Source: Prorocentrum cordatum (taxonomy: Eukaryota). Taken from it: 64,000 nucleotides of DNA. Shown piece after piece: positions 28,765 to 64,000 of this stretch (positions within the stretch are counted from its first letter, which is position 1; each line of letters starts with the position of its first letter). Location: assembly GCA_963575745.1 (NCBI GenBank), contig CAUYUJ010000059.1, positions 186,001 through 250,000 of the forward strand. Direction: 5' to 3'. The notes under the pieces were generated by a model. The model was not told the origin of the DNA. It saw only the letters and a program-made list of their open reading frames with translations, and ran no database searches. A program made the position numbers and the translations under genes.

Positions 28765-28814
<50 letters not shown>

Positions 28815-28823
28815 CGATGATAT

Positions 28824-28859
<36 letters not shown>

Positions 28860-33883: not shown

Positions 33884-33983
33884 NNNNNNNNNNNNNNNNN
33901 NNNNNNNNNNNNNNNNNNNNNNNNNNNNNNNNNNNNNNNNNNNNNNNNNNNNNNNNNNNNNNNNNNNNNNNNNNNNNNNNNNN
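33884..33983. other. Assembly gap (100 N)
   Basis: Direct reading. Confidence 1.

Positions 33984-40483: not shown

Positions 40484-40485
<2 letters not shown>
39905..40485 (+). repeat. Local tandem duplication (~240-260-bp units separated by (GAG)n)
   Basis: ggattgcaaaacgaagg...ggcgtaggcaacttt...ccgagccttccgagcctggcccgccccttctcgc...cccaggacaggatttagg occurs at ~39905-40168 and ~40248-40485. Confidence 0.85.
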
Positions 40486-40514
<29 letters not shown>

Positions 40515-41087
40515 GAGGAGGAGGAGGAGGAGGGGAGGAGGAGGGAGGAGGAGGGGGAGGAGGGGGAGAGGGAGGAGGGGGAGGAGGAGGAGGAGAGGAG
40601 GAGGAGGAGGGGGGGGGAGGAGGAGGAGGAGGAGGGAGGAGGAGGGGAGGAGGGGAGGGGAGGAGGAGGGGAGGAGGAGGAGGAGGAGGCGGAGGAGGAG
40701 GAGAGGAGGAGGAGGAGGAGGAGGGAGGAGGAGGGGGAGGAGGAGGGGGAGGGGGAGGAGGAGGAGGAGGAGGAGGAGGAGGAGGAGGAGGAGGAGGAGA
40801 GGAGGAGGAGGAGGGGGAGGGGGGGAGGTGGAGGAGGAGGAGGAGGAGGAGGAGGAGGAGGAGGAGGAGAGGAGGAGGAGGGAGGAGGAGGAGGGGAGGG
40901 GAGGAGGGAGGGAGGGAGGGAGGGAGGGAGGGAGCCAGGCGACTCGAGGAGGGAAGCGGCACTGCAAGAAAGGGAGCCAGCAGGACGAGGAGGCGCCAGC
41001 CAGGAGGCCCGCAGGCCCATGTACGCGCTGTTCTTCTGGGTCCGTCGGAGGACACCTGCCCTGCAGCTGAACGACTTCAAGCTGCGC

Positions 41088-43685: not shown

Positions 43686-46600
43686 CATTATTACCACTCG
43701 AATGTTGTATTGATTGCGTGGTGTACAGGTACGAAGCGTTTGCCAATTGACCGTCGAAAGCAACACTGGATGGATAAATCTTGACGCCTCGCGTATCCCC
43801 ACCAGTGGTGCGTCCCAATGAATGCTGAGCATTTTGCTCAGTGCACGTGCATTGCACGCCTCGCGTGGAATTTGCCTGTTCCGCCGTCCCGGACACGCCT
43901 GTTGCCGCCAGACCATTGTCGCGCGGCCGCCGACCAAAAATCCCCACCAGTTCATTCTACGCTGGCGTCCTCATCGGCATCCTTGTGGGCGTTCTCGCGA
44001 TACCTGTGAGGTGCCTCCCGCGCCATTTTGGCTGCGCTTCGCGCTGCTCCGCTCTGTGGCGGCGTAGTTTGCTTCGCTGCTTTTTCCTTCGCTACGGCGC
44101 GGCCCGCCCTAGCGCGCTCGGCGTTCGACTTGCTTCGCGCGCCCGCGTACAAAAAATATCCCCACCAACCCCATCCAGACATGGTGACCACGTACGTTGG
44201 TTCCACCAGAATAAGGAGGGGGGGCAACCAGCAACCCGAATTTCGGGATCAGCGTGAGGAAACGCATAAGTTTGCCAGAAATGCTTCACGATTCGCGCAT
44301 CCCCACCAGCCCATCCAGGAACGATGCCGTGAGGGGCTGCCCTATCATGTGGAGGGTTCGGGGACCCCCCTTGGGCCAGAGGCTTCTTGGATGCCGCTCG
44401 GAGTTTCTAAGGATGTGTGTCGAGGTCATTCGGGGTCTTCTTGGGGCGCTTTGGGGGCCTCATGGCGGTTTTTAGGAGCTTCTTGGGCGCCTTGGGGGTT
44501 TCTTGGAGGTCTTGTAGGACGTCATGGAGCCTCTCGGTGGCCTTCAGAGCCTATTGGGGCGTTTTGGTTTCCTCTTGGAGGCCTCTTGGGGGCCGCCTTC
44601 GGGCCTGTGCCTATTGGGGCCCTCTTGGAGCTCTTTTGGGAGCTCGTCGGGCTGTCTTGGGGCCGTCGTGGAGGCCATCGATCAAAGAAGGGCGGGTCCT
44701 CAATTAGGGTCGCCCCCCCAGGAGGCAAGACTTGGCTTGCAACCAGAAGAAACTCAATGTTGGTTTGCCTTTTCGCTGACGCCTTCCAGGTCGCGCTGAC
44801 GACCGGCGACCCCCCCATCGTGGCTTCCCCTCGGGGCCCGCCATCGTGGCCCCCCGTCGCGGCCCCCCTCGCGGCCTCGCACCGTGGCCTCCTCATCGCG
44901 GCCCCCCAGCCGCGTAAATGCGCAAAGGTGTCTAGGGCATCTTGCCGCAATGGTGGCACTTACGAAGTTTTGAGACAGGGCGGCGCGCATTCGCACCGCT
45001 CCCTCTGGAGCACGGAAAGTCGTCTCTCGGAGCCCTCTTTGGGAGGGTGTCGGAGCGTTCCTGGGGCCGTCTCGGACCTCTTTTGGGTGCCTCTCTTGGG
45101 CAATGTTGGAGCAATCGGGAGGCCCCACGGACACATGGAAAGCGAAGAGGCGAGAAGACATCACACATTGAAGACACATCAGATGGTTGAGTGATGTTGG
45201 TATATCGGGGAACTCTTTGGGAAGCTCCATGGCGACTTGGAGTCGCCTCGGGGTGGCAGTGTGGTTTATTGGAGGCACGTTGTAGGTAATCTTGAACCAC
45301 CTTGGAATATCCCAGGCCCTCTTGGAGTCATTGTGAACCGAAAAGGACCTTGTGACGCCTCGCGCCCCCTCATTCATCCAGACCCAGGGGATGGGGTGGG
45401 GGAAGGGGTAAAACCCTCCACGGAGTAGAAGAGATGGGATGGACAAACATGCGATCTAGGCCACTACCGCCCAGAGGGGTTGGTGGAATTACAATATTGA
45501 TGTGGGCATCTATACGGTACCACAGACATTGAAAATTGTCATGTGATCATGTGTTGGGCCCGGGTGAGTTGCATGTACATGGCACGAGCACGATATCAGA
45601 AGAAGGAGGAGGATGCAGGTGGGAAGTGGAACGCGTTCAAGCTGATTAGGGGCCGTGGTTCTCTCCCGAAAGGCTATTGGGTTATTGGAGCGTTTGCAGC
45701 TTTTGCGATCGGCGAGCTCTATTGCATAGGAAGGGGATGGGCGCATATGCATCTTATAGGGCAACGCAAGACGTCAGGTACGCATGAGCAAGATAACACT
45801 AGACGTGTGTGTATGTGGTGCAGGATGGGCATGTGAAGATGTCGGTGCTCACATGTGCGAAGGTGACGAAGAGAGTTGCAGAAGGCAGTTTTCGATAAGG
45901 GTACTGACGCGAGTGGGCGGCATTATCTCTACTGGTTGTCATTCCTCTCGCTTTCCCCCCCCCTTCGACATCCTGCCTCCTCGTCCCCCTGGTATTACTC
46001 CTCCTCCTCCACCTCCTCCTCCTCCTCCTCCTCCTCCTCCTCTTCCTCTTGTATAGGGCGCTGCCACAAAACAGTAAAGGGTACTGGGGGGGGGCTTGGG
46101 GAGAGCGAGGTCGGATCTTACCCTGGGGCACTTGTAGATATTCACACATGCCCCTCGGAAGCAATCGACTAAGGCTGCAACTTGCCTGGTGCAAGAACTT
46201 ATACGCACATTAAGCACAGGGGCACGGCGCTCCTCTCCTCTCCACTCCTCTCCTCCCCCCTCCTCCTCCTCCTCCCCTCTTCTCGCTTTTCCTCTCCTTC
46301 CTCCCCTCTCCTCTCCTCTCTTCCCATTATCATCCTCCTCCTTCTCCTTCGGCGCCCCCCCGTCTCTCTTCCCATCCTCCCACCACCTGCCATCCCATCT
46401 TCATTCAGTTGACGCTTTGGGTCGTAGTCTGACCCTGCTGTTTTTATTGATATTGGTGTGCCTCCCGATCTCACGTCTCGTCCTACTATTCGTTCGCGTT
46501 CGTACCTGCTCTGTCTGCCCCGTTTCCTCCAGCTTCGCTGTCATCGTGGCGTCTTTGCCCCATCCACCCCCAACCTAGCTCACGAGGGACGACAGCGACG

Positions 46601-47192
46601 ACCAGGGCGACTGCGGCGGCATCGTCAGCGGCAGCGCAGGGACGACAGGAGAGAGGAAGGAGAGAGGAAGGAGAAGAGGGGAGGGCGACAGCGACGACGA
46701 GGGAAACTGCGGCGGCATCGTCGGCGACAGCGCAGGCACGAGAGGAGAGGGGAAGGAGAGAGGAAGGAGAAGAGGGGAGGGGAGGGGCGGGCAGGGGAGG
46801 AGGGGGAGAGAGGAAGGAGGAAATGGGCGAGTGAGGGATGGGCGGGTGGGCGGATCAAGGGCGGAGAGTGGGCGAGAGAGGGGCGGGTAAGATGCTGAGA
46901 AGACAGCCAGCAATGGCTTGTCACAAAGTGCTCACTGGACCCCTCGAGCGTCGCCCAGGCCAGTGCCTCGAGCCTCCGAACTGCTCAGCTCGAACGAGAC
47001 GGGCGGCCCAGGCGCCCCAGAAAAAAAAACGGGAGCGGAGCCGCAGAGCTCTCTCCTGGCCACCGAGTCGGTGGTGTTCGCATTGTCGCATCTATCGTCG
47101 TCGCTGTTCGTAGGTCGCTCGTCCTCCTTCCTATCCTCGTCCTCTCGACTGTGATCTGAGAACCCTCGAGCTCCGAACTCCCAATCCCCGAT

Positions 47193-50100
47193 CTATTGCA
47201 GCGCCTGCGAGCCCTTCTTCTTAAGGGTCGGCCTGTCGCTTGCAGGGGCAGCTGTCGACTTCGACGGGCCAGCACTGCCTCCTGCGATACTCGAGAAGTC
47301 GGTACCACCAACACTGATGTGAGACTTCTCGCCGCTGGTGTCTGGCGGCCTGGCAAGGACGGCTGCAACCCGATCCTGCAAGGCCTGATTCAAATCCTGG
47401 AGCTTCGCATTGAAACGCTTGGGCAGGATGCCCGCAGTCAGCTCCAACGAACGCTGGAGAGCACACGCAGGCGCAGCATTGATGCAGTTAGCCAGCACCA
47501 TCTCCGACAAAGCACTACCAAGCTTCAAAGCAAGCGACGAGCGATTCGCACTGTACTCACTGAGAGACCGAACCACACTCATCTCCTTGTCGTCAGCCCA
47601 CTTGAGCATGGAGACGTTGGAGACCAGGAACTCACATATGCGCTCGGATGTGGGCGTCGTGGCAATGAACGTCTCGAAACGTCTGATCATCGCCGCCCAT
47701 GCCGAGTCGTTGCCGTCCGAGGTGAGAAACGCGAGCTCCCCCTTGAACGACCACTTGTTCAAGGCTTCCTCCAAGCCGCTGCACTTGTCCAAGAACTGTT
47801 GGATTTCTTCCTCCACGTCGGGCTTGGTGAGGTCGCGGGGCGCAAGCCTCCACACCCTGATCAGCTCATTCTCATGCTTCCCGAACGACTCCAGCTCGCG
47901 AACGTCGTTCGTGACGGTGCTCGCGTCCATGAGGGCGGTCGTCAATTCGATCATGCCGATCTGTCTGCCGTCTTTGACCCAGCCGAACGATCTCTCCAGG
48001 GCTTTCATGCTCCGTGCTGACACCAAGAGCGCCTTCACACCATCAGGCACTTTGCTCTCGAACTCCTTCGCAACGGACAAGAATGCGTCAGAACAGAACG
48101 GCGAGTGCACGACGCGTCGGACGTAGGACATCAAGGGGGTGGCCACCTGGACTCCAGCCCAAGCGTGGTTCAGTTTGTGCAAGAAGGTCATGAAGCTGTC
48201 GCCCAAGATGTCGTTCACCTCCTGGTCAGCAGCTGGCTTCAGGCCCGAGTCCATCAAGTGAGCCTTCACCCACTCCCTGAGCCCCGTCGCGCAGTCCTCC
48301 GTGACCGTGGAAGTCGCCATCAGCAGACTCTTGACGTGGTGCGTGAGGATCATCTTCTTGCGCGTGCTCTGGAGGGCCTGGGACTTCGGCGCGAAGTGGG
48401 CGCAGTACTCCAAGACGTTTCCAACCCAGTAGAGCTCGCCCCACGTGTCATCCTCAACCTCGCAGTGCAGGGCGCGTGATAGTTTCCCCTCGAGCTGACA
48501 AACTATCACGTCAGTCGCATGACCTCCATCCCCTCCCTCCCGCCCGAACCCCATCGAAATTCCAGGCCGCCCGATTAGGGTGGAAGAGGGGGATGCAGAG
48601 TCGAGTCGGACCGAGGACCCCATCGGAAAGACCAGCGGTCAGCCGACAGTCGACCTCAAGACCAGATTTAGCGGCCCCCTTGGGGGGCCCATCCCTTCAG
48701 GACGGGGGGGGGGGGGAGCAGCGACGTGAATAGGTTGGCAGCTCGCCTGGAGATCCTCCACGCTGAACCAGCTCATCAACGTATTGCACATGAACGCGTT
48801 CACCACCTTGGCCATGTTCATGTTCTCCGCGTAGACCGTATCCTCGAAGTCACTCGGGTCTGCATTCACGATGCACGTGGCGCAAAATTTCATTGAGATA
48901 TCTTGCTGCTCCTCCTGGCAAACGTCCACGACGGCGTTGTAGGCATCCTCGCTCTTGCCGCTGGGCTCCTTCAAGCCCGTGGCGATACTCAAGACCTTCT
49001 CCTTGAACTGGCTGGCAGCCGCCGCAGCCTCCTTCACGCAATCTGCATTGGCGAGGTTGCCATCAGAGGCGAGCAGCTCGACCAGGTGATCCCACGCGAG
49101 TTTCATGACGTTGCTGTTCGAGAGTGCCCTCACCCCTGCAGCGGTAGCTAGATTCCGTACACGCGTCGAAACTGCGTCGATCTTGGAGAGCATCATTCTG
49201 GACATCTTGCGCAAAGCCCCTGCCACAGGCTTCGCCTCACGAATGCACGTCAACACGTCGCCTGCGACGACGAGAGCGGACACGTCCATGTAGGGCTGCT
49301 CGAAGAGACTGGCCTTCGTGAAAGGTTCCCGCGCGTCGTCACACACGCTGAAGTCGAAAGGCTGGAACTCCTTGCCCAAGTACTCCTTGACGTCGGCAAT
49401 CCTCTTCAGCACCGTCGCCTCGCTCGGACTCTCGATGACGATTCGCTCCACCATGTCGGTCACAAGGCCAGCCTGAGTTCGCACCGCCAGCGAGTCCGCC
49501 ATGATGGCGTCAGCCTTGCACGACGCGGTCTCCCACAGCAGCCCGAGGCACAGAGTCTCGACGCGAGGCCACTCAACTGGTTGAGAATCGCCCTCGGGAG
49601 CAGGAGCCCGGGGGCACATGGCAAACTTGATCATGAGTGGCGGTTCGCTCGTCGCTAGCGTGAAGCAGGCTTGCTGGATGATCTGCGACCTTAAGCTCAC
49701 AGAACAACCGACCATAACCTGGTGCTCCGCGCTGGTGATGGTCCGCTTTGCCACGTCCACGGTCTTGCCCCTGATCTCCTCGAAGAAGATACGCCTGGCC
49801 GAGATCTCCTTGATCACCATCCCTGCTTGTTCCGACTTCGCTGAGAAATCATCGTCTCCAGTGAACCTGGCCATCTCGCGGGCGGATTTGGCCAATGCGT
49901 TGACGGTGGCATCGTGGATCCTGCGCTTCGGGCGCTGCGTCCACTCCTTCTCTGCCGAATGGTGCTCACGAGCCCTCTCCATGACCTTCTCAAACCTCTG
50001 AGTGGCGGACTCCTGCGGCGTGGGCTTGCCCTTCTTGCGAGCAGCGGCGCTGCCGACCTAAGGGCCAGCCGAAACTCACCCTGCCCTGGGACGGGGGGGG

Positions 50101-51460
50101 CATGGCGGTCCTCCGACATCTTCTTCTCTCCCTCATCCCTCATCCTCATTCGCTTCGTCGGGGGCGGCATGAATGCGCGTGCATCTCCACGCTGATCTAT
50201 GGCAAGGGTCGGGCCGTCGAGAGGCCCACCCCTTCCCTTGGCAAGACCAGCACGGAAACCTCAACACGCAGTCATCCCGCCCCTGGAAGGAAGAGGGGAG
50301 GGAATCCGACACGCGGAGGACGAGAAGACGACGGAAGACCACCATACCCCCTCACCCTACTCCCACAGGTAGTTGAGGTTTCGCCAGGCTTGTGCCTCAG
50401 GGCGCCCGCTGCGTGGAGGGCGGCGGCAGTCGCCGTCGGACTCGCCATCCTCATCGATCGGCTCGACGGTGTTGCTCGGGGGCAAGCTGCACTTCGAGCG
50501 CGGCGTCGCCGCCGCCGACGCAGCCCGGCCTCCAGCGGCACCTCCACCACTGCAGATTGCAGACGCAGCCTCCCCCTCCTCTGAGTCCTCCTCGTCCTGG
50601 AGCTGGGCGCGCTGCTCGCCGTCGTCGGAACTCACGTCGCTGAGCATCGCGACGTCGTAGTCGACGTCCCGCGCGCGACCGCCGACATGTCCAGCTGCGG
50701 CAGGGGCCATACCTCGAATCCTCTTGGCCTTCTTGATGTCGGCGATCGCCTCGGCTGCAAGCTCATCGTCCACGGGCTTCTGTCGCTTCTGCAACTGCAC
50801 CTCGCTCTTGACGCCCCTGCGAAACTTGTAGTTGCCCCTGTTCGGGTTCGGGTCGTTGACGTACCAGACACCCACCGATTTCAAACGTGCGTCCCGAGAG
50901 ATCTCAATGTCGGGCCACGTCTTGCGAATCCTCCTCGTCAAGGTGTCGTCTGCGTCGCCGTCGACGCACTTGATCTTGTGGGCCTTGCAGAACTGCTGGA
51001 GAGTGTAGAAGGCACCTTCTTCGTAGGCCTCGCAGAACTCAGACTCCAGCTCGGCCACCCACTGCTCCACTGGCTTCTTCTCTTGATGCGAGAACTCCCC
51101 AGCCTTTGTGCACCTGTCCTTCCTGAGCGCCTCGCAGCGAGCATCGAGAGACGGGCAATCCTTCCTCTGCGCCTGCAAGGTCTCGAAGCTGCAGCCGTCG
51201 AAGAAGCGCCTGCGCATGTCGAAGCAGAGGTAGCACTCGCTGCCTGTCAGGTACACCTCTCCCGTGGTGCGGCTCCTCTCGGCTTTGCTCCACTTCACGC
51301 GGCGCGTCCCGTCCCCGTGCCTGTCCATGTCCTGGGACGTCTGCTTACATGCCTCGCAAGTCCTGGGCGGCGCTGCCAAGATCTCCTCTGCCCAGGTGAC
51401 CTTCTTCTTGATGCTGTGCTTGGCGACGGCCTTCTTGCCACCAGCCGCGGACTTGCCCAT
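47193..51460 (-). CDS. ~1240-aa hypothetical protein (N-terminal Lys-rich segment, CxxC...CxxC zinc finger, long helical region); exons 51460-50396, 50057-48747, ~48536-47193
   Basis: Three long stop-free frames joined by phase-0 AG|GC donors (50396/5, 48747/6) and a TAG|G acceptor (50058/7). The last acceptor is tentative, and a mini-exon near 50190-50111 is possible. Motif CEAC-x~35-GSECYLC. Confidence 0.75.
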
Positions 51461-51571
51461 CGTGCAAGATGGCGCCAGGCTGCCAGCTGCCAGGCTGCCT
51501 GCCGACGGCGGCCCGTCGCTCGGGGAGACTCGAGGACCGAGGAGCCCAGCGCACCCAAGCGCCAGAAATGC

Positions 51572-51593
51572 CTCGAGCCAAAATGGCTACAGA
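51572..51593 (-). other. DinoSL relic (20/22 match)
   Basis: Minus strand reads TCTGTAGCCATTTTGGCTCGAG, ~110 nt upstream of the ATG at 51460. Confidence 0.92.
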
Positions 51594-52343
51594 ACAGGAC
51601 CTGGAGCCGTCGGGGGCCCTGAACGTTTACTAGAGTTGTCGTTCTTTCTTTCGAGGCCCTCAGGGCCCACTGCCCCTCGCCTCAAGGGCCTTCTGGCCCG
51701 CGCGCACTGAGACCCCAAGGGCACTTGGTGTTACAGGAGACCACGTCGAGGCGCTTAAGATCCCTGAGGCTCTTAAAGGCTCTGAATTTTCATGCTGGGA
51801 CTCGGTTTCCCGTTGCCCATGGCCCTAAGGTTTGCAGCTTGCAGACATCTCGAAAGAGTTCGTTAACTCCCCCACTCGCCCAAAGAGCCCGAAGGACCAT
51901 GCAGCCGTTTCTTCGACCAAGTGCAGAGCAGGAGGAGGAGGGCAATGCGCCGATGCGCCCTCGGCAAAGCGACGCACAGCTGACACGAAAAGGCCCTGAG
52001 GAGGAGGAGGAGGAGGAGAAGAAGGAGGAAGAGGGGGGCGGAGGAGGAGGAGGAGGAGGAGGAGGGGGAGGAGGAGTTAAGAGTTAAGAGAGTCTCGGAG
52101 AGTGAGTGGAGCTCCGTCGATCCTGCGATTTCCCCGCTGTGGCTCAAGAGCGGACTGTGTTCAACATGATCCTGAAACTGACGCGGCGCAGGTTGCCTAG
52201 GCTGCGGGCCGCTGGGCCAGGAAACTGAGCAGCAGGCTGAGAGACTGAGCAAGTGGCGGCGCGACTGCACTGCCTGCACGCCTGCACGCCAAGAAACTGC
52301 ACAGGCTGAGACTGCTGAGCCGAGCGATGCATCACGCATCTAC

Positions 52344-52640
52344 TCAGAAAGAGGGTGAGCTGCTCTCCTCTGGCTCATCATCTTGAATCGCAAGCGCTTC
52401 CTGCTGGTCGCTGAGCTGAGAATCGGCATCGAGGGTGTTGTACGCTAGCTCTCTGATCCTCTGAATCTGACGCTTGATCTTGTTGAACCTGCGCTTGAGG
52501 CTCAGAAACCTGTGGAACACATGGCTGCTGTTGCTGAGCACCCTCGTGAGGAACCTCTGCTGGCCTGGAGTCAAGACCCCCATGATGGCTTGCACGCGAG
52601 GCGCAGTCAGCGGCGGCGGGCGCCGAGCCTTGGGAGCCAT
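52344..52640 (-). CDS. 98-aa hypothetical protein: basic N-terminus (MAPKARR), coiled-coil middle, acidic tail
   Basis: ATG-to-stop non-repetitive ORF with GC3-rich codons, preceded by SL 3'-end relics. Confidence 0.65.
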   Translation of the reverse strand: MAPKARRPPPLTAPRVQAIMGVLTPGQQRFLTRVLSNSSHVFHRFLSLKRRFNKIKRQIQRIRELAYNTLDADSQLSDQQEALAIQDDEPEESSSPSF

Positions 52641-52673
52641 GTGTTACACTGCAAACGCGGGAAAGATGTCGGC

Positions 52674-52699
52674 CTCGAGAGCCTCGAGCCTTGAGCCAA
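52674..52699 (-). other. Partial/tandem DinoSL 3'-end relics
   Basis: Minus strand reads TTGGCTCAAG-GCTCGAG-GCTCTCGAG, 35-60 nt upstream of the ATG at 52640. Only 10 nt match exactly. Confidence 0.6.
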
Positions 52700-53044
52700 C
52701 CATATGCCTCTGGAACTGGCCTAGGGGCTGCGGCTCCTACTCGGACTCCTCACCACGGTACAACAGTTATTTCCAATTACCCCCTTCACATTCAGGCTCG
52801 TTGGAACCCCCTACGCCCACGACCACCGCGATGTAGCAAGCAGCGTGCCCATGTTAGACTGCGGGGCTAATGGGAACGTAACTTCGAGAACGTGCTTACA
52901 TTTTCATGCAGACGGCGGGCGCCAACAAATTAAGAGGCTACGCGAATGCCGCGAATGCACCAACCAGTGACGCGAACACCAACTCGATTTGCACCTCCCA
53001 AGCTCCCGCCGCAGGCCGTGCAAATCAGCCATGCACCACCGAGG

Positions 53045-53164
53045 CTCCTGAACAAACGCGTGTTCAGGAGGGGGCTCCTGAACAAATTTTGTTCAGGAAC
53101 CCCAAAAACACAGTGTTCAGGAGGCATCTCCTGAACAAAATTTGTTCAGGAGCTTGTTCAGGAG
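53045..53164. repeat. Cluster of CTCCTGAACA/TGTTCAGGAG inverted 10-mers (three hairpins)
   Basis: Eight copies in both orientations within 120 bp. Confidence 0.9.
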
Positions 53165-53381
53165 CCTGCCAGGCCCCGTGGGACTCCCTGGGACCCCTTG
53201 AAATTCGCTCAGCTGAGCGGTGCAAATCAAGTTGGCCCATAAACAGCGCACACGGCCCCCCGTGCCGACGCCTGGCCCGAGGGTCGCACAGAAGTCTGAG
53301 AATATCGAGGCCCTCCACGATTTCACTTGTCTCCCTCCCGTCTCCCCTCTGCCTCCCGCCTCCATCATATGGGAAAAAATG

Positions 53382-56300
53382 CTAGCCTCCAGAGGATGCA
53401 GCTGCATGGTGCCCCTCCCTGAGCAAATCTGCAAGCTCGTCAAGGAACTCCTGCTCTTCCCTTCCGAGCCCTGGCCTGTTCGACCAATCCTGGGCAACCA
53501 AAAAGTTAGCTCGCTTCAAGCGCTCAGGCAGAGAGGGAACGCAATGCAGGTGGACTCGCCTGACGCTCCACATCGTATCTGCACTCGCAGTATCTGTCAT
53601 GCGGTGCTCCACGCGCCACATGCCCTTGGGAATCCCTTCTCCGCAGACCCCGCACACGGCTCGATTGGTGGGGGCTTTGCCGCATCCAATCAAGCCTGCT
53701 TCGCCGTGCGGTCTAGGGGCCTCGGGCCCCGCAGGGGGGGCAGGGGGCGGCGGCAGCGGAGGCGGAGGAGGGGCGCCTGGCTCATCATCGGGCTCAGGCT
53801 CAGACGACGACCCCTCGGTGGCCTCAGCCGCTGACATCTCAGGACGGATTGATTCGCCTCCAAGGTCGGATGCATCGGACTCGACATCCACTCCAACTTC
53901 AGCGGCGGGCGCACCCCCGTGCCCAAGACCACCCGCAAGACAAGTAACAGGACCATGTGGCAGGGTAGGACTTGTTGTTTCCAGGCTCATTCCAAATGGC
54001 ATCCACTGCTTGGGCTCGTCAACTTTTTTGGTCCCAACCTTGCGGGTTTTGACAAGATCCAAATCTACGCTGAAGAACTCCTCAAGTCGATATGCAAACT
54101 CGATGTCATTTTCACGGGGGGCTTTGAGCAATTTGCTGGCCGTGAGCTTCGCAAGGACAACTGGGCGGCCATCATTGTTTACACGAGCTTCCAAAAGGAA
54201 TTCCCTCAGCAAGCGATGGAATGGTAATGTTACGAGCTTCCCCTGGCAATGTCGTTCAAGCCCCCAGTTACCACTTGGGAACGTCTTGACCCTGGAGACG
54301 GCGAAAAACTCCCCTGCACCAAACTTGAAAGTGAGGGCCACATTTACTTCGACACCAGCAGCCTCCAACTGCAAATGCAACGGTAATGCTACGTGCTTTA
54401 CACCCCTGCTGGCCAAGTGGGCGTGCAAGTTCTTGGCCCCTGAGCGGCACGACGACGGCCATCTTGCTGCCGAGCCCCCTCCCCCCGTGCCTAAACACGT
54501 TCGCTCCCCCCTTTTGTTTTGGGACTCAGCATAAGACGCGCCATTTTATTGTTGCGTTCAGTTATCACCCTATTGGACACGTGCGAAGAGCAGCGCAAGG
54601 TGTGAGAGTAGGTGGCACCCTCGTCGTGTATTTCCGTCAGTCCGCCCTCCCCCTACCATGCCTGCTTGATGATTCCTAAACCTTACGGTTGGACCCACCA
54701 TGCCTATCTTCATACTACAGTAGCCCGAGACATGGCGCGAGGCCTTCTCAAGGAAACCCAACCCCAGGGACCACACAGTTAATGTTAGCAGGGGGGAGGG
54801 TGCGAGACAGCAAGATGCCCTGTCGCCGAGGCCCCTTTAGCTGGCGAAGCTCCTGCTCTCACGTAGTCGTAATAATAATCCTGCGGGCACAAGCCAGACA
54901 AGCAACACACCTGCTCCGCAGCAACCGAGACTCCGTTCGGCACTGGTTCAGGATCATAGGAGAATAGGCGGCGGGCTTCACGCGCGATGTCCACATCTGT
55001 GTCACGCACGTTAACCAGCGACGGCTTCAAACCAAGTCCAGGGCAATCCAGACGAGCTCCACTCTCCCAGAACCTTGGAGCCCCACGTGTTACGATGCAC
55101 TTGTTACTTATTATGTTACATGTGCCTTGGTTGCATTCAAGCCCCCCACCACCCACGGGGTGGAGGGGGGATGACGACGCGTTTGCATGGTGGGCCCTTC
55201 AGGCCATCGCGACGTTGCGACTCTGAAAAATGGAGGTGGGAGGAAGTGGGCAGAGGGAGGAGGAAGGGGAGACGAGAGGCAGGAACAGGAGTAAAGGGTC
55301 CGCATGGGACGGACGCCATTGGGCTACGCGGGCGGCTGAACGAGGAGGAGGAGGAGGAGGAGTGCGACGTGGGGAAGAGGGCCAAGGATTTGGTTCTGCG
55401 GCTACGGGGGTGAGCCCCTGACCAACCCCGAGCTTGACACCTCGAACCTCATGCCAATAGGGATACCACCTCCACTTTACTTGCATTTGCACTGTTCCCA
55501 AATCCGCCAAGTTAGCTAGACTAGACTGCGCCTGTGCCTGGATTCCTGGATCCCGCTGGGCCCGCTAGATATTGGTCCCTGGGCCCCCCATCGCAAGCTG
55601 CGACGCCAGTCACTATTGTTGCGTTGGTGCTTTCGCTGGCCCCAGCCCCTTGAACAAGCACACGCAGCCCTGATCCTGAGAGCACGCGGCGCACTGGCTG
55701 GTGACGCACCTGGCTTAAGTGAGGGGGGGTCTATGGGGGTCCACGCACCTGGCCAATGCTGCGTTACGGTTCCGGATGCCGTGGGAGGGGTGCCCTTTCC
55801 AAATTGCGCGAGCCTTCGGAATGACCCCCGAAAAGGCAGACACCGAGCGTTGGCCACCAGGGCTCGTGAAGAGCCGATTTGGGCACGATTTGTAAGCACA
55901 GGAACGCACAAGTTAGAATTCTTCGCGTGAGCGTCTGATGGGGGGGGGGGCGGTGATGGCCTCAGGCGTTGATGACTGACTGACTGACTGAGCTGACTCA
56001 GACTGAAACCCAAGACGTGTACCAGAATGCTCGATTGCCCTGAGGAACCCCTAGGTCCTAAGTCAGAAAACTCCACGGGGCTCACGCAATGGCAAGACTG
56101 ATTGAATTCATATCGGCGCAGCCGTCTTTACACATTTACATCACTGTACACCTGTGATTTTCGATCGAGGAGATGGCGTCCGAAGCTCGGCGTCGTCGGA
56201 CGCGGCGCTGGAACGCCCTCCCCTCGTGAAGGAGCGGGAGAGCGGTCGCCTGCGAGATCTTCTCCCTGGCGATGCTCTCGTCGACAACGTTCTGGTACAC

Positions 56301-59150
56301 TGCGCGCGCAGCTGCATCCATGCCCCGCCAAATGGCGCCGAGCCTCTTCATGTCACGCTTGTGCTCCTCCGTGCCTGGTCGAACGCCAGGCGTCCGATTG
56401 AGGCCAGTGAATGCCATCCACGCCGACGTCGCCCTGACGCGCCTCTCTTTGAAAGGCACGTCCTCCTTCGCGGTGCGCCTCCGCCCTGTTCTGCCAGCAA
56501 GTCGCTTCATTATACTCGTGAGGTGGATCGGCTTGACCCCATGACGTCTGCAGACGTCCTTCCTGATCTCCGCCATCTTGGCGAAAATCTTGTTCCTCAC
56601 GAACTTCCTGTAAGTCCTGACCGAGAGCTCGAACGGCCCGACTGTGCGACCTCTCTTCCGTTTGATCTCCTGGCCGAGCAAATGTTTGCGCTCTTCGTTC
56701 AGCGAGGTGAGGGGCATGGACGCCAAGCTGTTGTATAAAAAACCGTGCGCGATGCGACTCTGATGACCACTGAGCTTGCCAATCCAAGGCAAAGAAAACG
56801 ATGCATCAACACATGACCTGCAAGCTCGGTAGGTATCACCCAGTGTGTTCATTGTGGCCATAATCGCATCCTCGTTGTAATCCACCACGCACGCACGAAG
56901 TATATCGAACTTGGGCTGGGCAAATCTGAACTCAGTCCTGAAGTATGCCGAACCTGCAGACGAAATGAGCTTCACAGATGCATGGAAGAACTGGTCGTCG
57001 GTCCATCCTCCATCCTGCCAGCCGCTGGACGTGCTGTCGAACAACATATCTGCGATGCCACGCTGTAAGGCCAAAGCGTTGGTGCCGTCCAAGAACTTCC
57101 TGACATGGTCGCGAGCCGTCTTCGAGGCCAACTCGAAGCGCTCAGCGTGATCAGAGGGGCTGTAATGCGGGTGCGTTGGCGGCTGAAGCTCTTGCAATCT
57201 CACGAACTGCTGCCTGGCCTGGTCCGCTTTGAACAGGGTGTTCAGGTAGACCTGGAACGGCGAGTTGCAGATGGCGGCAATGTGCAATGACCTGTTCATC
57301 AGGTCTGCGTCTATGAAGGCAGTGAGCTTCTTCGCCCTGATGCTGTTGTTCGCCGAGTGGTTGATGTCCCCTGCCGCCGCAGCAACTGCGGCCTGAGCCT
57401 CCGCAGCATCCAGCGATTCACCATCACACATGGCGTGCAAACACCGAGGCAGAATCTTGAAGAGAAGCATCCCCCTAAGCATCCAACAACTCGTTTGCTC
57501 GAAACCTTTGAACCTATACATCAAACATACGGGGCAGCCAGCTGAGAATAACATATCAAGCGCTCTCTTGACAGTGTTATGGAAGTGCATTCTTCCACCG
57601 CAGGTGCACCCAGGATGATGCCGATGCACGATGAGCTCATCATCTGGATCGGAGTTCAGAACCATGACAACAAACTCAAGGTCAGTGCTGTCTAAATCGC
57701 GAGCAGGCCTGGTCATCGCAATGATTCCTCGTGTTTTCGCCTTCCACCCACGTATCTGATCAGACTCATCAAAGACATCGCGAAACACTGCTGCGTTCGC
57801 AATCTTATCAACCTGGGTCTGGAAACGATCCCGAAATCGAGCCAACTGCCACAGGTGACCAGCTCGCGTCATCGCTGTTATCGGGTCTGACTGGTGCTCA
57901 AAGTTCGGCCTCATCGACAAAACCAGCTGGTGCGCGAAACACTGAATGCCAATCACAGTGAACGAGTGTGGCGTGCCCTGGGACAAGATCGCCGACCGTT
58001 CAACCTGTCCCTGCAGTAAGCCATTGCATACGTGTGCGTCCTTGGAAAAAAACACCAACTTACTTTCAACGGCATCAACGACAGGACCGCACACATCAGC
58101 ACGATCAAAGCAAGAACCTCTGGTAGGGAAAATACTCCACCTCCTCCACCTGTCGTAGATCGTTCCGAAATTCCCCCTCGGGATGGGCACAGCAGGCGTT
58201 ACTATCTCACAGGCCATGGTCGAGAACGAAGCCCTCGAAAACAAAGGAATCATGTGAACTGTCTGCGAAAGGTTCATGACACAACGGCGCTTATTCGCGC
58301 CACGCTTGGACTCGTGCTTGTCTACGCCAGGGTTGGGCATATCATCAGCAGCAGCAGGTCGCTGAACGTCATTGGGCGCAGAACGAAGCCACATCTCAGC
58401 GTCGTCCATTGTCGCAGTGATCAGCATGCCTGCCTCAGCAGGAGGCGCTGAGGCGATGAAGTCGCGCACGCCTGTGGCCTGGGACAGCACGTGCGACACT
58501 GCGGCCCTGGAGCAATCCTTCTTGGACGTCCTCCTCACGTCCACTGCGATGATCAAACCAGCGGCCTCGAGCTCACTGGTCCTCAACACGGCTTCCTGTG
58601 GACCACAGCCAACCCGCAACCACGACATGATGCCAATGCCGCCCAATCAGACTTGCCCTGCGCCCGCACCTGGTCATTCAGTAAATCTCACGCATTTGCA
58701 GAATCTGATCCATGGCCCAGGGCATGTCTGACTGGGCGGCATCGGCCGCAGGACGGTTGGCGGGCTGGCTCCACAGTCCTTGGCGTCAACAGCGGAGCAC
58801 CCGAAACTTGTGCTCGAGACCGCCCGCGCGAAGGAGCTGCCCGTGTTCCTCAGGGCAGCCCGTGCCCGCCAAGCCTGAAATTTGTGCATGGCGGCGCGGA
58901 TCCGAGCTCTGTGGACGAGCTCCTTCGGCCTGCCTGGCGCGCCGCGACCGTGGCCCGCCCCTGGAGCGGCTGCTGCCCTGCCGCGGGCGCGCCCACGGCC
59001 GCGGCCGCCGCGGCCGCGCCCGCGCCCAGCTGGTGCTGGCGCGGGGGCGGCAGGAGCCAGGGCGGCGGCAGCAGCTGCTGGTGGGGCTGCAGCTCTTGCA
59101 GCACCGTCGCCTGCTCCAGCCCCAGGGCCATCCACCAACAACCTCCACAT
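53382..59150 (-). CDS. Putative DDE transposase (hAT-like motif order) with HMG box and C-terminal PARP-type zinc finger, ~1364 aa; exons 59150-58779, 58595-56152, 55073-54853, 54439-53382
   Basis: Exons total 4095 nt and stay in frame through GA-AG, GT-AG and GA-AG introns, all in AG|G context. Motifs: TMDDAEM (~58405), FFSKDAHVCN (~58040), CFAHQL (~57935), YRF, LTSLNEERKH (~56700), SAWMAF...MKRLGAIWRGMDAAARAVY (HMG, ~56430-56295), APTNRAVCGVC-x3-IPKGMWR...HLHC (zf-PARP-like, ~53680-53545). The exon 1 junction is the least certain. Confidence 0.72.
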
Positions 59151-59176
59151 GCCCGAGGTGCCACAAGATGATAGAG

Positions 59177-59192
59177 TTGAGCCCAAAGTGGC
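59177..59192 (-). other. Degenerate DinoSL relic
   Basis: Minus strand GCCACTTTGGGCTCAA versus SL GCCATTTTGGCTCAA (one substitution, one insertion), 26 nt upstream of the ATG at 59150. Confidence 0.55.
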
Positions 59193-59376
59193 GGAGGGTG
59201 GACACATGGGGGATCGGACAGGCTTGCTGGGAAGGCGGTCATGGCATGAGCTTGCACGCAGAGCGACAAGGGACACATCAGAGGACATCCAAGGGACCAA
59301 GGGACATGCCAGGGACATGCCAGGGGACATACTAGCTGACATAACAAGGGACATAACAACCATAATTTGAAGATAC

Positions 59377-59550
59377 GGGTAGGGGTAGGGGGTAAGGGGT
59401 AGAGGTAGGGGTAGGGGGTAGGGGGTAGAGGTAGGGGTAGAGGTAGGGGTAGGGGTAGGGGGTAGGGGGTAGGGGTAGCGGTAGGCTGTAGGGGTAGGTG
59501 TAGGGGTAGGGGTATGGGTAGCGGTAGGGGTAGGGGTAGGGGTAGGGGTT
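59377..59550. repeat. (GGGGTA)n hexamer array, preceded by ~10-bp GGGACAT-type repeats (59268-59355)
   Basis: Direct reading. Confidence 0.92.
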
Positions 59551-60704
59551 GGGGGGCCGTTGGTCGAGAAATACGTGTGGGGGTGGGGGAGGAGAAATCC
59601 TTCATAACCGCGCGGCCCTATGCGAAGTGCGTGTGCGTCCACCTCCCCCCAGCTATGTCGGCGTTGCTTATTGCCCTGAATTGGTCAGATATTGCCCGTC
59701 CCCCACTCATGTCTCCCGATCGCCCCCCACCAATCCTCGCCCTCATCTCCTCTAGTTGCATCGACCCCGCCCCCATGAAAGAAACGTCGGGCTGTCAGAT
59801 GCCAAAACGTGTTCTTATGTTATGTTTGTACGTGCGATGTTTTCTTTAGTAGGCCAGGGGGCGCACGGATTTTTACAACAGGCGCTATCAGACGTCTTTG
59901 TGTTACCTATACTCACGGTTTGAGGTCCACCAGGTAGTCACGCAATATCCACCGTGGCATTTGTTGTTTATCGGCGCATGCACTTGCGAGCTTGAATGAG
60001 CGACATGGTGCGAGTTCGTCGAGTGGTAACAAAGGCGGTGCGAAACTGGCCCTTGTTCGTACCGTTGGGCGGGGCAAACAATGCTGACACATATGCCCCA
60101 CCAACGCAGTCGAACACCGCACATGGATGCACCTCCAAGTACTGATACTACTGTAATGTGGACGGTACCAATACAATCTTCCTCCTCCTCGTCGTCCCCC
60201 TCCTCATCGTCCTCCTCGGGCGCCCTCCTCCTGCGCCGCCTCCTCCGCGCCCCCTCCCTCCCTCGATCTCGCGCTCTCTCCCCCGTGGCCCTCCCCCGTG
60301 AAGCGGGCGGGGAGGCACCGACTGGCTCCTCGCGCCCCCGGCCGGCGTCGCGGCGGAGGCCGAGAGGGCCCTGTGGTCCCGCGGGGCGCGCCCCGCCTCG
60401 CCCCGCCACGGACCAACGACGGCGAGGACGACGAGGGCCACGCCGACGGCGGCGACGAAGAGCACGAGGACCACGAGGGTCACGAGGGCCACGGACCACG
60501 ACCACGACGACGGCGGCGGTTGCGCCACCGGCCGTGGCCACGACCTGAGCTGATGTTCATCGCGGCTTCTCTTGCTCCGAACCACACTTTGGTGCTGGGT
60601 CCTCGCTGTGAAGAGAGACAGCGCCCCGCGCCCTCACCGACCTCCTCCCGCTTCATCCTCCCTCATCCCATCCTTGCTTCTGCCCTCCGCATGCTCACCG
60701 TGTC

Positions 60705-62050
60705 GGCACACCCCTCGAATGCCCCAGCGGCAGCGTCCGCATGGCGCACCCGCACCCAATTCGGTCACGACTCACACATTTCGTGGCCCCACAGGGAGCT
60801 CCACCGAGGGCCCCAGCGGCAGCGTCCGCATGGCGCACCCGCACCCAATTCGGCACACCCCTCACACGATTCGTGGCCCTACAGGAAGGCCCCAGTGGCA
60901 GCGTCCGCAGAGCGTACCCGCATTCAATTCGGCACACCTTTCACACGCCTCGTGGTCCCATAGGAAGCTTCACCGAAGGCCCCAGCGGCAGCGTCCGCAT
61001 GGCGCACCCGCACCCAAGTCGGTATACCCATCACACGCTTCATGGACCCACAGGGCCCTCCACCGCAGGCCACAGCTGCAGCGTCCGCGTGCACAAAATC
61101 CCATACACCCTCACACGCTTCGTGGCCCCATAGGGAGCTCCACCAGTGGCCCCAGCGGCAGCGTCCGCATGGCGTGCCCGCACCCAACTCGGCACACCCC
61201 TCACGCGTTTCGTGGCCTCTCCACGGGGAGCCCCTCCGAAGGCCCCAGCGGCAGCGTCTGCACAGGGTACCCGCACCCAGGGCGGCAAACCCCTCACCCG
61301 CTTCGTGGCCCCATAGGGGGCTTCACCAGCGGCAGCGTCCGCATGACGCACCCGCACCCACTTCGGCACACCCCTCACACGTGTGGCGTCCCCATAGGGA
61401 GTCCCACCGAAGGCCTCAGCGGCAGCGTCCGCATAGCGTACCCGCACTCCAGTCGGCACCACTAGCACACGCCTCATAGCCCCACTGGGAGCCCCACCGC
61501 AGGCCCAAGCGGAAGCGTCCTCATTGCGCACCCGCGCTTGAGTCGGCGCACCTCTCACGCGTTCCGTGGCCCCACAATGAGCTCCACCGAAGGCCCCGGC
61601 ACCGTCCGCAGATCGTACCCGCACCCAAGTGAGCACACCCCTCGCACGCTTCGTTGCCCCAAAGGGAGCTCCACCGCAGGCCCCAGTGGCAGCGGCCGCA
61701 TGGCGCCCCCGCGCCCAATTCGCCACACCCCTCACACGCTTTGTGCCCCCGCAATCAAAAGCACAAAAAACGCCCCTACCCTGGTTTACGAGGCGCTGTG
61801 CGCTGAAACTCCTGTGGGTTGACAGGGTAATCCCTGCGTGATGTGCCGCGTCCTGGCGGCTCTAGGCTTTGGGGGTTCCCAGGAGGTTTACAGACCACGC
61901 ACTTGTAACCCAGGGTAGGGCCGTTTTTCATCCCTCAACGAGCTCCACCGCAGGCCCAAGCGGCAACGCCCGCACGGCGCACCCGCACCCCCTTCGGCAC
62001 ACCCCCTTCACACGCTCCGTGGCCCCATTAGGAAGCTCGACCGAGGCCCC
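60705..62050. repeat. ~89-bp minisatellite array, about a dozen degenerate units, interrupted near 61750-61935
   Basis: Unit gccccagcggcagcgtccgcatggcgcacccgcacccaattcggcacacccctcacacgcttcgtggccccatagggagctccaccgaag; first two units start at 60721 and 60810. Confidence 0.92.
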
Positions 62051-62804: not shown

Positions 62805-63330
<526 letters not shown>

Positions 63331-64000
63331 TTTTCGCGGGGAGGCGCGAGTGTTCAGTAATTGCTGCCCTCTACCGTGTTGCGCATTTGCGGCACTGCGT
63401 TGCGCGGCGTGGTGCGGTGGCGCGTCTCGTTGCGGGTCGAACGCGGGCGCTCGCCTCGAGCGGGCAGCGCTGTCCGGACGCGTCGGCCGTCCGCGCCCCA
63501 TGGGCGCGCCGGCCCTCCAGGCCGCCAGGAGCAGGCGGAGGAGGTGCGAGGAATGAGAGGAGGATGTCGGACTGCCAAGCTGTCGAACCCGATGGCCTGC
63601 CAGCAGAGTGGAGGAGGAGGAGGAGGAGGAGGAGGAGGAGAATGGAGAATGGAGAATGGAGAATGGAGGAGGAGGAGGAGGAGGAGGAGGAGGAGAGAGG
63701 AGAGGAGAAGGAGGAGGAGAGGAGGGAGGAGGAGGAGGGAGGAGGAGGAGGAGAATGGAGAATGGAGAATGGAGAATGGAGGAGGAGGAGGAGGAGGAGG
63801 AGGAAGAAGAAGAAGAAGATGAGGAGCGGGAGAAGTAGGAGGAGGAGAAGGAGGATGAGGAGGAGGAGATGGAGGAGGAGGAGGAGGAGGAGGAGGTGGA
63901 GGAGATGGAGGAGGAGGAGGAGGATGGAGGAGATGGAGGAGGATGAGGTGGAGGAGATGGAGGAGGAATCAGAGGGTGGACCAGGGAGGCGCCACGAGGA

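What the first reader, a model, noticed from the sequence alone, without database searches (positions are those of the whole stretch)
47193..59192. Three-gene, spliced-leader-headed cassette around a putative transposase: candidate new large DNA transposon system
Seen: three co-oriented minus-strand genes packed into 12 kb, with exons up to 2.4 kb and no disrupting stops under my splice model, whereas the host gene here has 50-90-nt exons kilobases apart. They encode a ~1364-aa DDE-like protein, a 98-aa basic/coiled-coil protein and a ~1240-aa Cys4-finger/helical protein. Established: classical hAT elements encode a single transposase, while accessory ORFs are known from CACTA, PIF/Harbinger, Kolobok and KDZ elements. 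Inference: this is a young, multi-gene dinoflagellate element that fits none of these as I know them, with two accessory proteins of unknown function (targeting or chromatin handling are possibilities).
Basis: partly seen in the sequence, partly recalled or inferred. Interest (0 to 1): 0.9.

Follow-up and report, generated by a model that had tools for sequence, protein, structure and literature searches.

The report
Dinoflagellate Hermes-like transposase gene and neighbours
This dinoflagellate DNA stretch holds an intact gene for an unannotated Hermes-like cut-and-paste enzyme beside two genes of unknown function, but nothing shows that the three move together as one jumping element.

Summary
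Window 47193-59192 (minus strand) carries three co-oriented, intron-poor genes. Gene A has 4 exons and about 1,360-1,410 aa, gene B has 98 aa, and gene C has 3 exons and 1,224 aa.

Gene A is real and intact. It belongs to a large family (484 cluster representatives at E<=1e-3) with no Pfam transposase domain. Its AlphaFold model (pLDDT 88.6) matches the hAT transposase Hermes best (Z 14.8, 382 residues). The family keeps a D-D-E triad and a CxxH motif, all present in this copy. An HMG box and a C-terminal PARP-type zinc finger follow the catalytic core.

The three-gene transposon reading is not shown. I found no terminal inverted repeats or target-site duplications and no second copy of the trio. 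No near-identical gene A exists in the protein collections; the nearest are 63-70% identical. B and C have no detectable family. Their GC3 (0.75-0.82) differs from that of gene A (0.56-0.67).

Each gene is preceded by a relict dinoflagellate spliced leader: 19 of 21 bases for C, degenerate for A and B. That is the mark of reverse-transcribed mRNA copies, not of cut-and-paste. No whole genome was held, so copy number, termini and synteny remain untested.

The parts
53382..59150 (-). Gene A: hAT/Hermes-like DDE transposase-family gene with 4 exons. Exon 1 runs from 59150 to 58770 or 58692, exon 2 is 58595-56152, exon 3 is 55073-54863, and exon 4 runs from 54503 or 54431 to 53385, plus the stop. 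The protein is about 1,361-1,411 aa.
   Evidence: ORFs. Family search: 484 representatives at E<=1e-3. Relatives align to all four parts. Fold.
57897..58433 (-). RNase H-like catalytic core (residues 72-250 of the 836-aa frame). D81/D82 lie in strand 1, D203 follows strand 4, and C236-x2-H239 follows strand 5.
   Evidence: Secondary structure of the model. Column conservation: D81 49/49, D82 48/49, D203 59/60, C236 61/61, H239 60/61.
56691..56693 (-). Codon of E652, the likely third catalytic residue. It lies in helix 649-659, after the all-alpha insertion domain.
   Evidence: E652 is conserved in 57/58, H655 in 56/56 and E660 in 50/57. Helix position. The Hermes alignment spans residues 27-691.
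56157..56429 (-). HMG-box-like domain at the end of exon 2 (residues about 740-830).
   Evidence: The family profile hits HMG boxes in the PDB (TFAM 1.2e-06, NHP6A 1.6e-06). Structural matches to SOX/HMG boxes have Z 6.2-7.2. Pfam HMG_box appears in 2 of 47 relatives.
53529..53675 (-). C-terminal PARP-type zinc-finger-like motif (C-x2-C-x30-H-x2-C).
   Evidence: Pfam zf-PARP E 0.0013, 19.8 bits, below the 39.3 cut-off. The same weak hit sits at the same C-terminal place in 5 of 47 relatives. Spacing was read from the translation.
59176..59192 (-). Degenerate spliced-leader-like relict, 26-42 nt upstream of gene A's ATG.
   Evidence: Local score 11 against the leader, fourth best of 7 sites scoring >=10 in 128 kb.
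52344..52640 (-). Gene B: 98-aa basic protein with an acidic tail. No family found.
   Evidence: Translation. GC3 0.745 and best codon score in this frame. Pfam gave only sub-threshold noise.
52690..52701 (-). Partial spliced-leader-like relict (3' part of the leader), 50-61 nt upstream of gene B's ATG.
   Evidence: Local score 10.
47193..51460 (-). Gene C: 1,224-aa protein in 3 exons (51460-50363, 50057-48747, 48458-47193). It has a Cys-rich N-terminal part and then a long helical part. No family found.
   Evidence: Splice model with a single terminal stop. P0153 is 96% identical and spliced alike. GC3 0.78-0.82. No Pfam or PDB match.
51572..51592 (-). Relict dinoflagellate spliced leader, 19 of 21 bases, 112 nt upstream of gene C's ATG.
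   Evidence: The leader sequence is as printed in PMC5585692.
53046..53163 (.). Cluster of 8 copies of a 9-nt motif in both orientations, forming palindromes. It lies 220-340 nt downstream of gene A's stop. It occurs once in the window, and its role is unknown.
   Evidence: 9 matches in the window, 8 of them here; shuffles gave a mean of 0.46. See also (family D16).

Best explanation
The stretch is nuclear DNA of a Prorocentrum-type dinoflagellate. It holds three separate, co-oriented, intron-poor genes.

Gene A encodes an intact member of a large, so far unannotated family of DDE transposases. Their catalytic core and all-alpha insertion domain are built like those of the hAT transposase Hermes. 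An HMG box, a middle domain and a PARP-type zinc finger follow the core.

By analogy with Hermes (inferred, not shown), the D81/D82-D203-E652 site would bind two metal ions, nick the element end, and resolve the break through a hairpin on the flanking DNA. The HMG box would bend DNA for synapsis, and the zinc finger would hold DNA ends or nicks.

Genes B and C are orphan genes with host-like codon composition.

Each gene starts behind a relict spliced leader. The copies at this locus, or their ancestors, therefore entered the genome as reverse-transcribed, trans-spliced transcripts, that is, as dinoflagellate 'retrogenes', which can retain introns. The three are neighbours in a one-directional gene array. 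They are not shown to be one mobile DNA unit.
For: Fold of gene A:
- Model with pLDDT 88.6 and pTM 0.86.
- Foldseek: ranks 1-10 are all Hermes chains (E 1.9e-4 to 5e-3, prob 0.99-1.0), and from rank 13 the probability is <=0.25.
- Search of 48,161 chains: Hermes Z 14.8 (382 residues, rmsd 5.4). Next come ISCth4 at 9.6, P element at 7.4, Tn5 at 7.1 and retroviral integrases at 6.2-6.8.

Catalytic motifs are conserved in the family and present here.

Family size: 484 hits at E<=1e-3, 257 at <=1e-10 and 74 at <=1e-30.

The full architecture is shared with relatives of 1,291-1,402 aa.

Spliced-leader relicts:
- C has 19/21.
- The A and B sites are among 7 sites scoring >=10 in 128 kb, and each lies 26-61 nt upstream of its ATG on the coding strand.
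- In passages I read, Song et al. 2017 report relict leaders before more than 20% of Symbiodinium genes, best kept 50-100 bp upstream of the start. They also report that some retrogenes keep parental introns and insert near their parents (PMC5585692).
- A perfect leader copy at 4724-4744 and another partial one at 44001-44040 show that such relicts are frequent in this window.

GC3 is 0.56-0.67 in A against 0.75-0.82 in B and C.

Most P. cordatum genes are one-directional, and 64.8% are dispersed duplicates (PMC10666404).

No TIR or TSD was found.
Against: - Gene A has three introns and gene C two. A classical processed retrocopy would have none, so the retrogene reading needs retained or later-gained introns.
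- No poly(A) remnant is visible after the stops of B or C.
- The relicts before A and B are weak (scores 11 and 10 of a possible 21).
- Three independent RNA-mediated insertions side by side in 12 kb would be a coincidence unless such copies cluster.
- In run X1 eight contigs cover 47066-58991 at an even word depth of 17-23, while the three bins to the left read 4-9. Contigs of two runs (X1, X2) both begin exactly at 47066. This could mark the edge of a unit that is repeated as a whole.
- Differences between the window and run X1 are 7 non-synonymous to 2 synonymous in A, 5 to 4 in C, and 12 outside coding sequence. That is close to neutral and does not separate a gene from a decaying copy.
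Confidence: 0.5

Rival explanations
1. The 12 kb are one autonomous DNA transposon of a new kind, in which the Hermes-like transposase (A) moves the unit together with two accessory genes (B, C).
For: - A is an intact transposase-family gene.
- The three genes are close together and co-oriented.
- Word depth is even across the whole 12 kb in run X1.
- Contigs of X1 and X2 share a break at 47066, 127 nt past gene C's stop.
- The cluster of C's near-identical relative P0153 lists 7 member sequences, so C may be multi-copy.
Against: - No TIR or TSD was found between 45200-47300 and 58900-60200. The 39 candidates were low-complexity or flanked by no repeat longer than 2 nt. Only (GAG)n/(CTC)n inverted matches appeared.
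- No near-identical A exists elsewhere.
- No diverged second contig path appeared in 4 runs, and no joint skipping the region was among those listed.
- Relict leaders sit before each gene.
- GC3 differs between A and B/C.
- B and C have no similarity to any of the 151 family proteins.
Confidence: 0.12
2. Gene A alone is, or sits in, a cut-and-paste element of a hAT-like superfamily that inserted here as DNA. B and C are unrelated neighbours, and the leader-like match before A is chance.
For: - The fold and the intact catalytic motifs.
- A very diverse family, as expected of transposons.
- Near-neutral substitution pattern, 7 non-synonymous to 2 synonymous.
- A's lower GC3 than its neighbours.
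- A one-off palindromic motif cluster just past its stop could be a binding-site array.
Against: - The motif cluster has no partner at the 5' side.
- No TIR or TSD was found.
- A leader-like site lies 26-42 nt before the ATG.
- No second copy was seen.
Confidence: 0.2
3. Gene A is a domesticated, host-serving member of a transposase-derived gene family, for example in DNA repair or chromatin work. It is not a mobile element.
For: - Complete architecture with DNA-binding add-ons (HMG box, PARP-type finger) kept across relatives of 20-35% identity.
- Introns are present.
- No termini were found.
- Apparently a single copy at 80% likeness or more in four runs.
Against: - Hundreds of deeply diverged members and near-neutral recent change in this copy fit selfish elements better.
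- The catalytic residues are fully kept, which domesticated hAT genes often lose (recalled knowledge, not tested).
Confidence: 0.13

Closest known systems
hAT superfamily transposases (Hermes, the only hAT with solved structures among the matches)
   Same: - An RNase H-like core with D, D and E.
- A CxxH motif right after strand 5.
- A large all-alpha insertion domain before the E-bearing helix.
- The best structural match by a wide margin (Z 14.8 against 9.6 for the next family).
- The stretch around E652 (P-L-T-S-x3-E-R-x5-G) recalls the hAT C-terminal signature around its catalytic E. This resemblance is recalled, not tested.
   Different: - No Pfam hAT dimerisation domain, DUF4413, DUF659 or BED finger in the window's frames or in 47 relatives.
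- The sequence profile does not reach Hermes in the PDB at E<=10.
- Extra features: a conserved His/Cys cluster (H341, C347, C349, C609, C612), an HMG box and a PARP-type finger.
- No 8-bp duplication or short TIRs were found here.
- Superfamilies without solved structures (Kolobok, CACTA, KDZ and others) could not be compared.
Dinoflagellate retrogenes marked by relict spliced leaders (Song et al. 2017, PMC5585692, passages read; Slamovits and Keeling 2008, recalled)
   Same: A relict leader lies on the coding strand 26-132 nt upstream of each start codon and retains the TTT(T/G) or TTGG part. The genes are intron-poor. Introns in such genes are reported in the paper.
   Different: The A and B relicts are degenerate. 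No parent genes are known and no poly(A) trace is seen. That a transposase-family gene is itself such a copy is not described in the papers I saw.
Multi-gene DNA transposons (CACTA/En-Spm, PIF/Harbinger with its Myb/MADF partner, Kolobok)
   Same: A DDE transposase gene lies next to further co-oriented open reading frames.
   Different: Those families are defined by the same gene set recurring between the same termini. Here no termini and no second copy were found. B and C show none of the known partner domains.
RAG1/Transib with HMGB1 as bending cofactor
   Same: A DDE recombinase works with an HMG box. HMGB1 chains from RAG complexes are among the profile's PDB hits (5zdz_N, 6oem_N, 6cg0_N).
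   Different: Here the HMG box is fused to the enzyme. RAG1 itself matched only weakly (Foldseek rank 28, prob 0.07) and was not in the top 50 of the wide search.

Membership tests
hAT superfamily transposase | RNase H-like DDE core interrupted by an all-alpha insertion domain, Hermes-like overall | tested here: met
   Model pLDDT 88.6. Hermes fills ranks 1-10 in Foldseek. Hermes Z 14.8 over 382 residues, next family 9.6.
hAT superfamily transposase | Conserved D, D, E and a C/DxxH motif after the second D | tested here: met
   D81 49/49, D203 59/60, C236 61/61, H239 60/61 and E652 57/58 in alignment A1, all present in the window's copy. Whether they sit together in space was not measured.
hAT superfamily transposase | Sequence signatures: hAT C-terminal dimerisation domain, BED finger or other Pfam hAT models | tested here: not met
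   No such Pfam hit in the 6 window frames (E<=1) or in 47 relatives. The profile did not reach Hermes in the PDB at E<=10.
hAT superfamily transposase | Short TIRs and 8-bp target-site duplication | tested here: inconclusive
   None was found for ends placed in 45200-47300 and 58900-60200 or by the repeat finder. The true ends are unknown, and a gene-A-only element was not searched systematically.
Dinoflagellate spliced-leader-relict retrogene | Relict leader upstream of the start codon on the coding strand | tested here: met
   C: 19/21 at -112. A: score 11 at -26 to -42. B: score 10 at -50 to -61. Only 7 sites score >=10 in 128 kb.
Dinoflagellate spliced-leader-relict retrogene | Loss of parental introns, poly(A) trace, identifiable parent gene | tested here: inconclusive
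   A has 3 introns and C has 2. No poly(A) is seen. Parents could not be sought because no genome is held. Song et al. report retrogenes with retained introns.
Multi-gene DNA transposon (CACTA, PIF/Harbinger, Kolobok type) | The same gene set recurs in several copies between shared termini | not testable with these tools
   No genome is held. The two metagenome loci with A relatives are 4.3 and 4.8 kb with under 1 kb of flank. The cluster listing was switched off.
Multi-gene DNA transposon (CACTA, PIF/Harbinger, Kolobok type) | Accessory protein with a known partner domain (Myb/SANT/MADF, TnpA, THAP) | tested here: not met
   B and C have no Pfam family above noise at E<=5. PDB sequence searches were run for C only and gave no hit of note.
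HMG box | Three-helix L-shaped DNA-binding domain recognisable by profile and fold | tested here: met
   Family profile against the PDB: TFAM 1.2e-06 and NHP6A 1.6e-06. Structural Z 6.2-7.2 to SOX/HMG boxes for residues about 735-825. The Pfam model did not reach the window's own frame.
PARP-type zinc finger (Pfam PF00645) | C-x2-C-x28-30-H-x2-C finger reaching the Pfam gathering score | tested here: inconclusive
   19.8 bits against a cut-off of 39.3. The same weak hit lies at the same place in 5 of 47 relatives. The spacing C-x2-C-x30-H-x2-C was read in the translation.

The most novel reading that the evidence does not exclude
The 12 kb, with one edge at 47066, are one copy of an autonomous element of a new, dinoflagellate-expanded superfamily of Hermes-like DNA transposons. 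Its transposase carries its own HMG box and PARP-type finger, and it travels with two dedicated accessory genes (B, C). The relict leaders would then be traces of RNA-mediated renewal of its genes.
Probability: 0.1. Interest if true: 0.8.

Novelty: new variant of a known kind. Interest (0 to 1): 0.5.

Why it matters
Dinoflagellate genomes are huge and repeat-rich, yet their DNA transposons are barely described. Gene A shows that a large protein family, invisible to Pfam, has a confident Hermes-like transposase fold with intact catalytic residues. It also has two fused DNA-binding modules. RAG recombinases, by contrast, use an HMG-box protein as a separate cofactor.

If the family is mobile, it is a candidate driver of the gene duplication and rearrangement seen in these genomes. 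It would also be a new branch for the evolution of hAT-like recombinases. The relict leaders add a second point: transposase genes themselves may spread by the mRNA-recycling route typical of dinoflagellates.

Tried and rejected
- Whole-genome search: no genome is held for this window.
- Earlier notes of this scan: nothing relevant.
- RNA evidence: no RNA holder was listed among 10 runs, so splice models and leader addition could not be checked on reads.
The shortened stretch was laid. No joint across the 12 kb was among the joints listed (577 more were not shown).
- The search for related loci with the 73-row alignment: no column stretch was conserved enough. With 8 rows it gave 2 metagenome loci of 28% identity with almost no flank, and neither B nor C matched them. 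Viral contigs gave no relative of A or C.
- Word-based searches for near relatives found only P0001 (63%), P0008 (69%), the window's own 93-aa fragment P0025, and P0153 for gene C.
- ESM Atlas for P0153: best score 0.81, at chance level. For the N-terminal part of C the service did not answer or was closed.
- AlphaFold of P0153 with 3 rows gave pLDDT 32.7, which is unusable, so no fold search was made.
- Complex prediction of A with B gave 'no answer' (score 0.00). This is no evidence either way.
- The UniRef name 'Exocyst complex component Sec6' for P0153 found no support: no Pfam family at E<=5 and no PDB hit at E<=10.
- The two introns of gene C show no introner-type terminal inverted repeats.
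- Literature: five full-text searches listed no paper describing this family or a hAT-like transposase with an HMG box in dinoflagellates. I read listings and abstracts only, apart from passages of PMC10666404 and PMC5585692. Supplements were not opened.


Full report
**What is there**

The window is GC-rich (about 0.55-0.67 per 2 kb) and contains copies of the dinoflagellate spliced leader. There is a perfect copy at 4724-4744 (+) and a 19-of-21 copy at 51572-51592 (-); none of 100 shuffles gave 2 matches. A protein 96% identical to gene C is named by its source 'unnamed protein product [Prorocentrum cordatum]'. The window's GC content fits the 59.7% reported for that genome (PMC10666404, passages read). 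I therefore treat the window as nuclear DNA of that species or a close relative. No whole genome is held for it.

**Checking the observation**

On the minus strand the long open frames are 56136-58646 (836 aa), 53382-54545 (387 aa), 50357-51586, 48639-50057 and 47193-48638.

- *Gene A.* Relatives of 1,291-1,402 aa align to four parts: the frame that starts at ATG 59150, the 836-aa frame, a short exon near 55073-54863, and the 387-aa frame. Of the 151 family proteins, 16 hit the short exon and 11 hit the last exon. Frame-keeping splice sites exist at every junction. Two junctions have two options each, which gives 1,361-1,411 aa.
- *Gene B* runs from 52640 to 52344 and encodes 98 aa. Its composition is coding-like, with GC3 0.745.
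- *Gene C*, spliced as 51460-50363 / 50057-48747 / 48458-47193, gives 1,224 aa with one terminal stop. The annotated protein P0153 is joined at the same second intron.

Exons of 1.1-2.4 kb with introns of 0.1-1.1 kb contrast with the published means of 240 bp and 4,709 bp.

**What gene A is**

Pfam finds nothing in the 836-aa frame. An exhaustive HMMER search of 1.84 billion cluster representatives found 484 relatives at E<=1e-3, 257 at <=1e-10 and 74 at <=1e-30. Many of them align end to end.

In a 73-row alignment the best-kept columns are D81 (49/49), D82 (48/49), D203 (59/60), C236 (61/61), H239 (60/61), H341 (70/72), C347 and C349 (72/72), R378 and K380 (72/72), C609 (61/61), E652 (57/58) and H655 (56/56). 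All are present in this copy.

AlphaFold2 with this alignment gave pLDDT 88.6 and pTM 0.86. The model has a strand-strand-strand-helix-strand-helix-strand unit at residues 72-235, followed by helices only.

- D81/D82 lie in the first strand.
- D203 follows the fourth strand.
- CxxH follows the fifth strand.
- E652 lies in a helix after the helical insertion.

This is the layout of DDE transposases of the hAT type. Foldseek ranks 1-10 are all Hermes chains. A search of 48,161 representative chains that does not rely on Foldseek put Hermes first, at Z 14.8 over 382 residues. ISCth4 followed at 9.6, the P element at 7.4, Tn5 at 7.1 and retroviral integrases at 6.2-6.8.

The end of the frame is an HMG box. 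This rests on the profile search against the PDB (E 1.2e-06) and on structural matches of Z 6.2-7.2.

The last exon ends in a C-x2-C-x30-H-x2-C motif. It gives a sub-threshold zf-PARP hit here and at the same C-terminal place in 5 of 47 relatives. None of those 47 relatives shows any Pfam transposase family.

Gene A is thus an intact member of an unannotated, Hermes-like transposase family with fused DNA-binding modules. Superfamilies that lack solved structures (Kolobok, CACTA, KDZ and others) could not be compared. 'hAT-like' here describes the architecture; it is not a proven placement.

**What B and C are**

Neither has a Pfam family at E<=5. PDB sequence searches, run for C only, gave no hit of note. 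Neither resembles any of the 151 family proteins. The Atlas search for P0153 stayed at chance level, and its structure prediction failed with pLDDT 32.7. The source name 'Sec6' for P0153 is not supported by these tests. Their function remains unknown. Their GC3 (0.75-0.82) is close to each other and higher than that of gene A (0.56-0.67).

**Is it one mobile unit?**

I found no terminal inverted repeat with a target-site duplication for ends placed in 45200-47300 and 58900-60200. The repeat finder gave only (GAG)n/(CTC)n matches.

Word-based searches of 5.8 billion proteins found no near-identical gene A. The hits were one 63% and one 69% fragment from metagenomes, plus the window's own 93-aa fragment.

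Contigs of four public runs were laid at 80% likeness or more. They show one path over the 12 kb, 0.25% different in run X1 (28 letters in about 11,050). No listed joint skips the region.

Two metagenome loci with 28% relatives of A are too short to show neighbours.

Two hints favour a unit. Depth in X1 is even (17-23) from 47066 to 58991, against 4-9 in the three bins to the left. Contigs of X1 and X2 both begin exactly at 47066. However, the left flank is low-complexity sequence that the tool partly skipped, so this remains a hint only.

**The spliced-leader relicts**

A local-alignment scan of both strands found only 7 places that score 10 or more against the leader:

- the perfect copy at 4724;
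- gene C's relict (score 17);
- a site at 44001-44040 (score 12);
- the site 26-42 nt before gene A's ATG (score 11);
- the site 50-61 nt before gene B's ATG (score 10);
- two others (score 10).

At the rate of such weak sites observed in the window, finding one within 100 nt upstream of a given start codon on the right strand has a chance of a few in a thousand (my estimate from the counts).

Song et al. 2017 (passages read) report the following:

- Relict leaders lie before more than 20% of Symbiodinium genes.
- They are best preserved 50-100 bp upstream of the start, with the TTT(T/G) part retained.
- Some retrogenes keep introns, and retrogenes often lie near their parents.

A relict leader can enter DNA only through a reverse-transcribed, trans-spliced RNA. 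The 'spliced-leader-headed' feature therefore points to RNA-mediated origin of each gene copy. It does not point to cut-and-paste of a cassette. Against this reading stand the five introns, the lack of a poly(A) trace and the weakness of two of the three relicts.

**Recent change**

Thirty differences between the window and run X1 fall as 12 outside coding sequence, 7 non-synonymous to 2 synonymous in A, and 5 to 4 in C. This is close to neutral and the numbers are small. Some X1 variants are the residues seen in P0153, so the window, X1 and P0153 look like variants of one locus or of very close copies.

**Verdict**

The transposase call is supported and sharpened. The three-gene element is neither shown nor excluded.

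My best reading (0.5) is three neighbouring leader-relict genes in a one-directional array, one of them a Hermes-like transposase-family gene. The rival readings are a three-gene transposon (0.12), a gene-A-only DNA element (0.2) and a domesticated gene (0.13).

The step that would decide is a search of the complete genome for copies, their gene order and their ends.

Noticed in passing
window 4724-4744 (+): A perfect copy of the dinoflagellate spliced leader. By eye the base before it also fits the 22-nt form. It is not followed by a GT donor, so it looks like a very young retrogene head and not a leader RNA gene. A 260-aa open frame without a Pfam family follows at 4940-5719.
   Followed up: partly
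window 60700-62000: A tandem array of units of about 90 bp (9.8 copies). Its word depth in four sequencing runs is thousands of times that of the neighbouring 12 kb (up to about 149,000 in X1), so it is a very abundant satellite.
   Followed up: partly
window 44000-44623 (+): A high-copy repeat (word depth about 3,500 in X1 against about 20 for the genes). It begins with a partial spliced-leader-like stretch (score 12) and may be a repeated retro-element or retrogene family.
   Followed up: no
window 53046-53163: Eight copies of a 9-nt motif in both orientations form two near-identical palindromic units 53 nt apart, just downstream of gene A. It is unique in the window and not of raised depth in run X1. 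It could be a hairpin signal or a protein-binding array.
   Followed up: partly
window 45998-46048 and 51998-52076: (CTC)n and (GAG)n microsatellites flank gene C as a 40-44-nt inverted pair, 90-95% complementary. Similar triplet runs are common elsewhere in the window (40166-40907, 62806-63329, 63610-63967), so this is probably chance.
   Followed up: no
window 18479-19957 (+) and 1856-3505 (-), 27914-29281 (+): Further long open frames with coding-like GC3 (0.74-0.77). The first has a sub-threshold SET-domain hit (E 0.0038); the other two have no family. The window thus holds several other intron-poor genes of unknown function.
   Followed up: no
window 33884-33983: An assembly gap of 100 N.
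   Followed up: no
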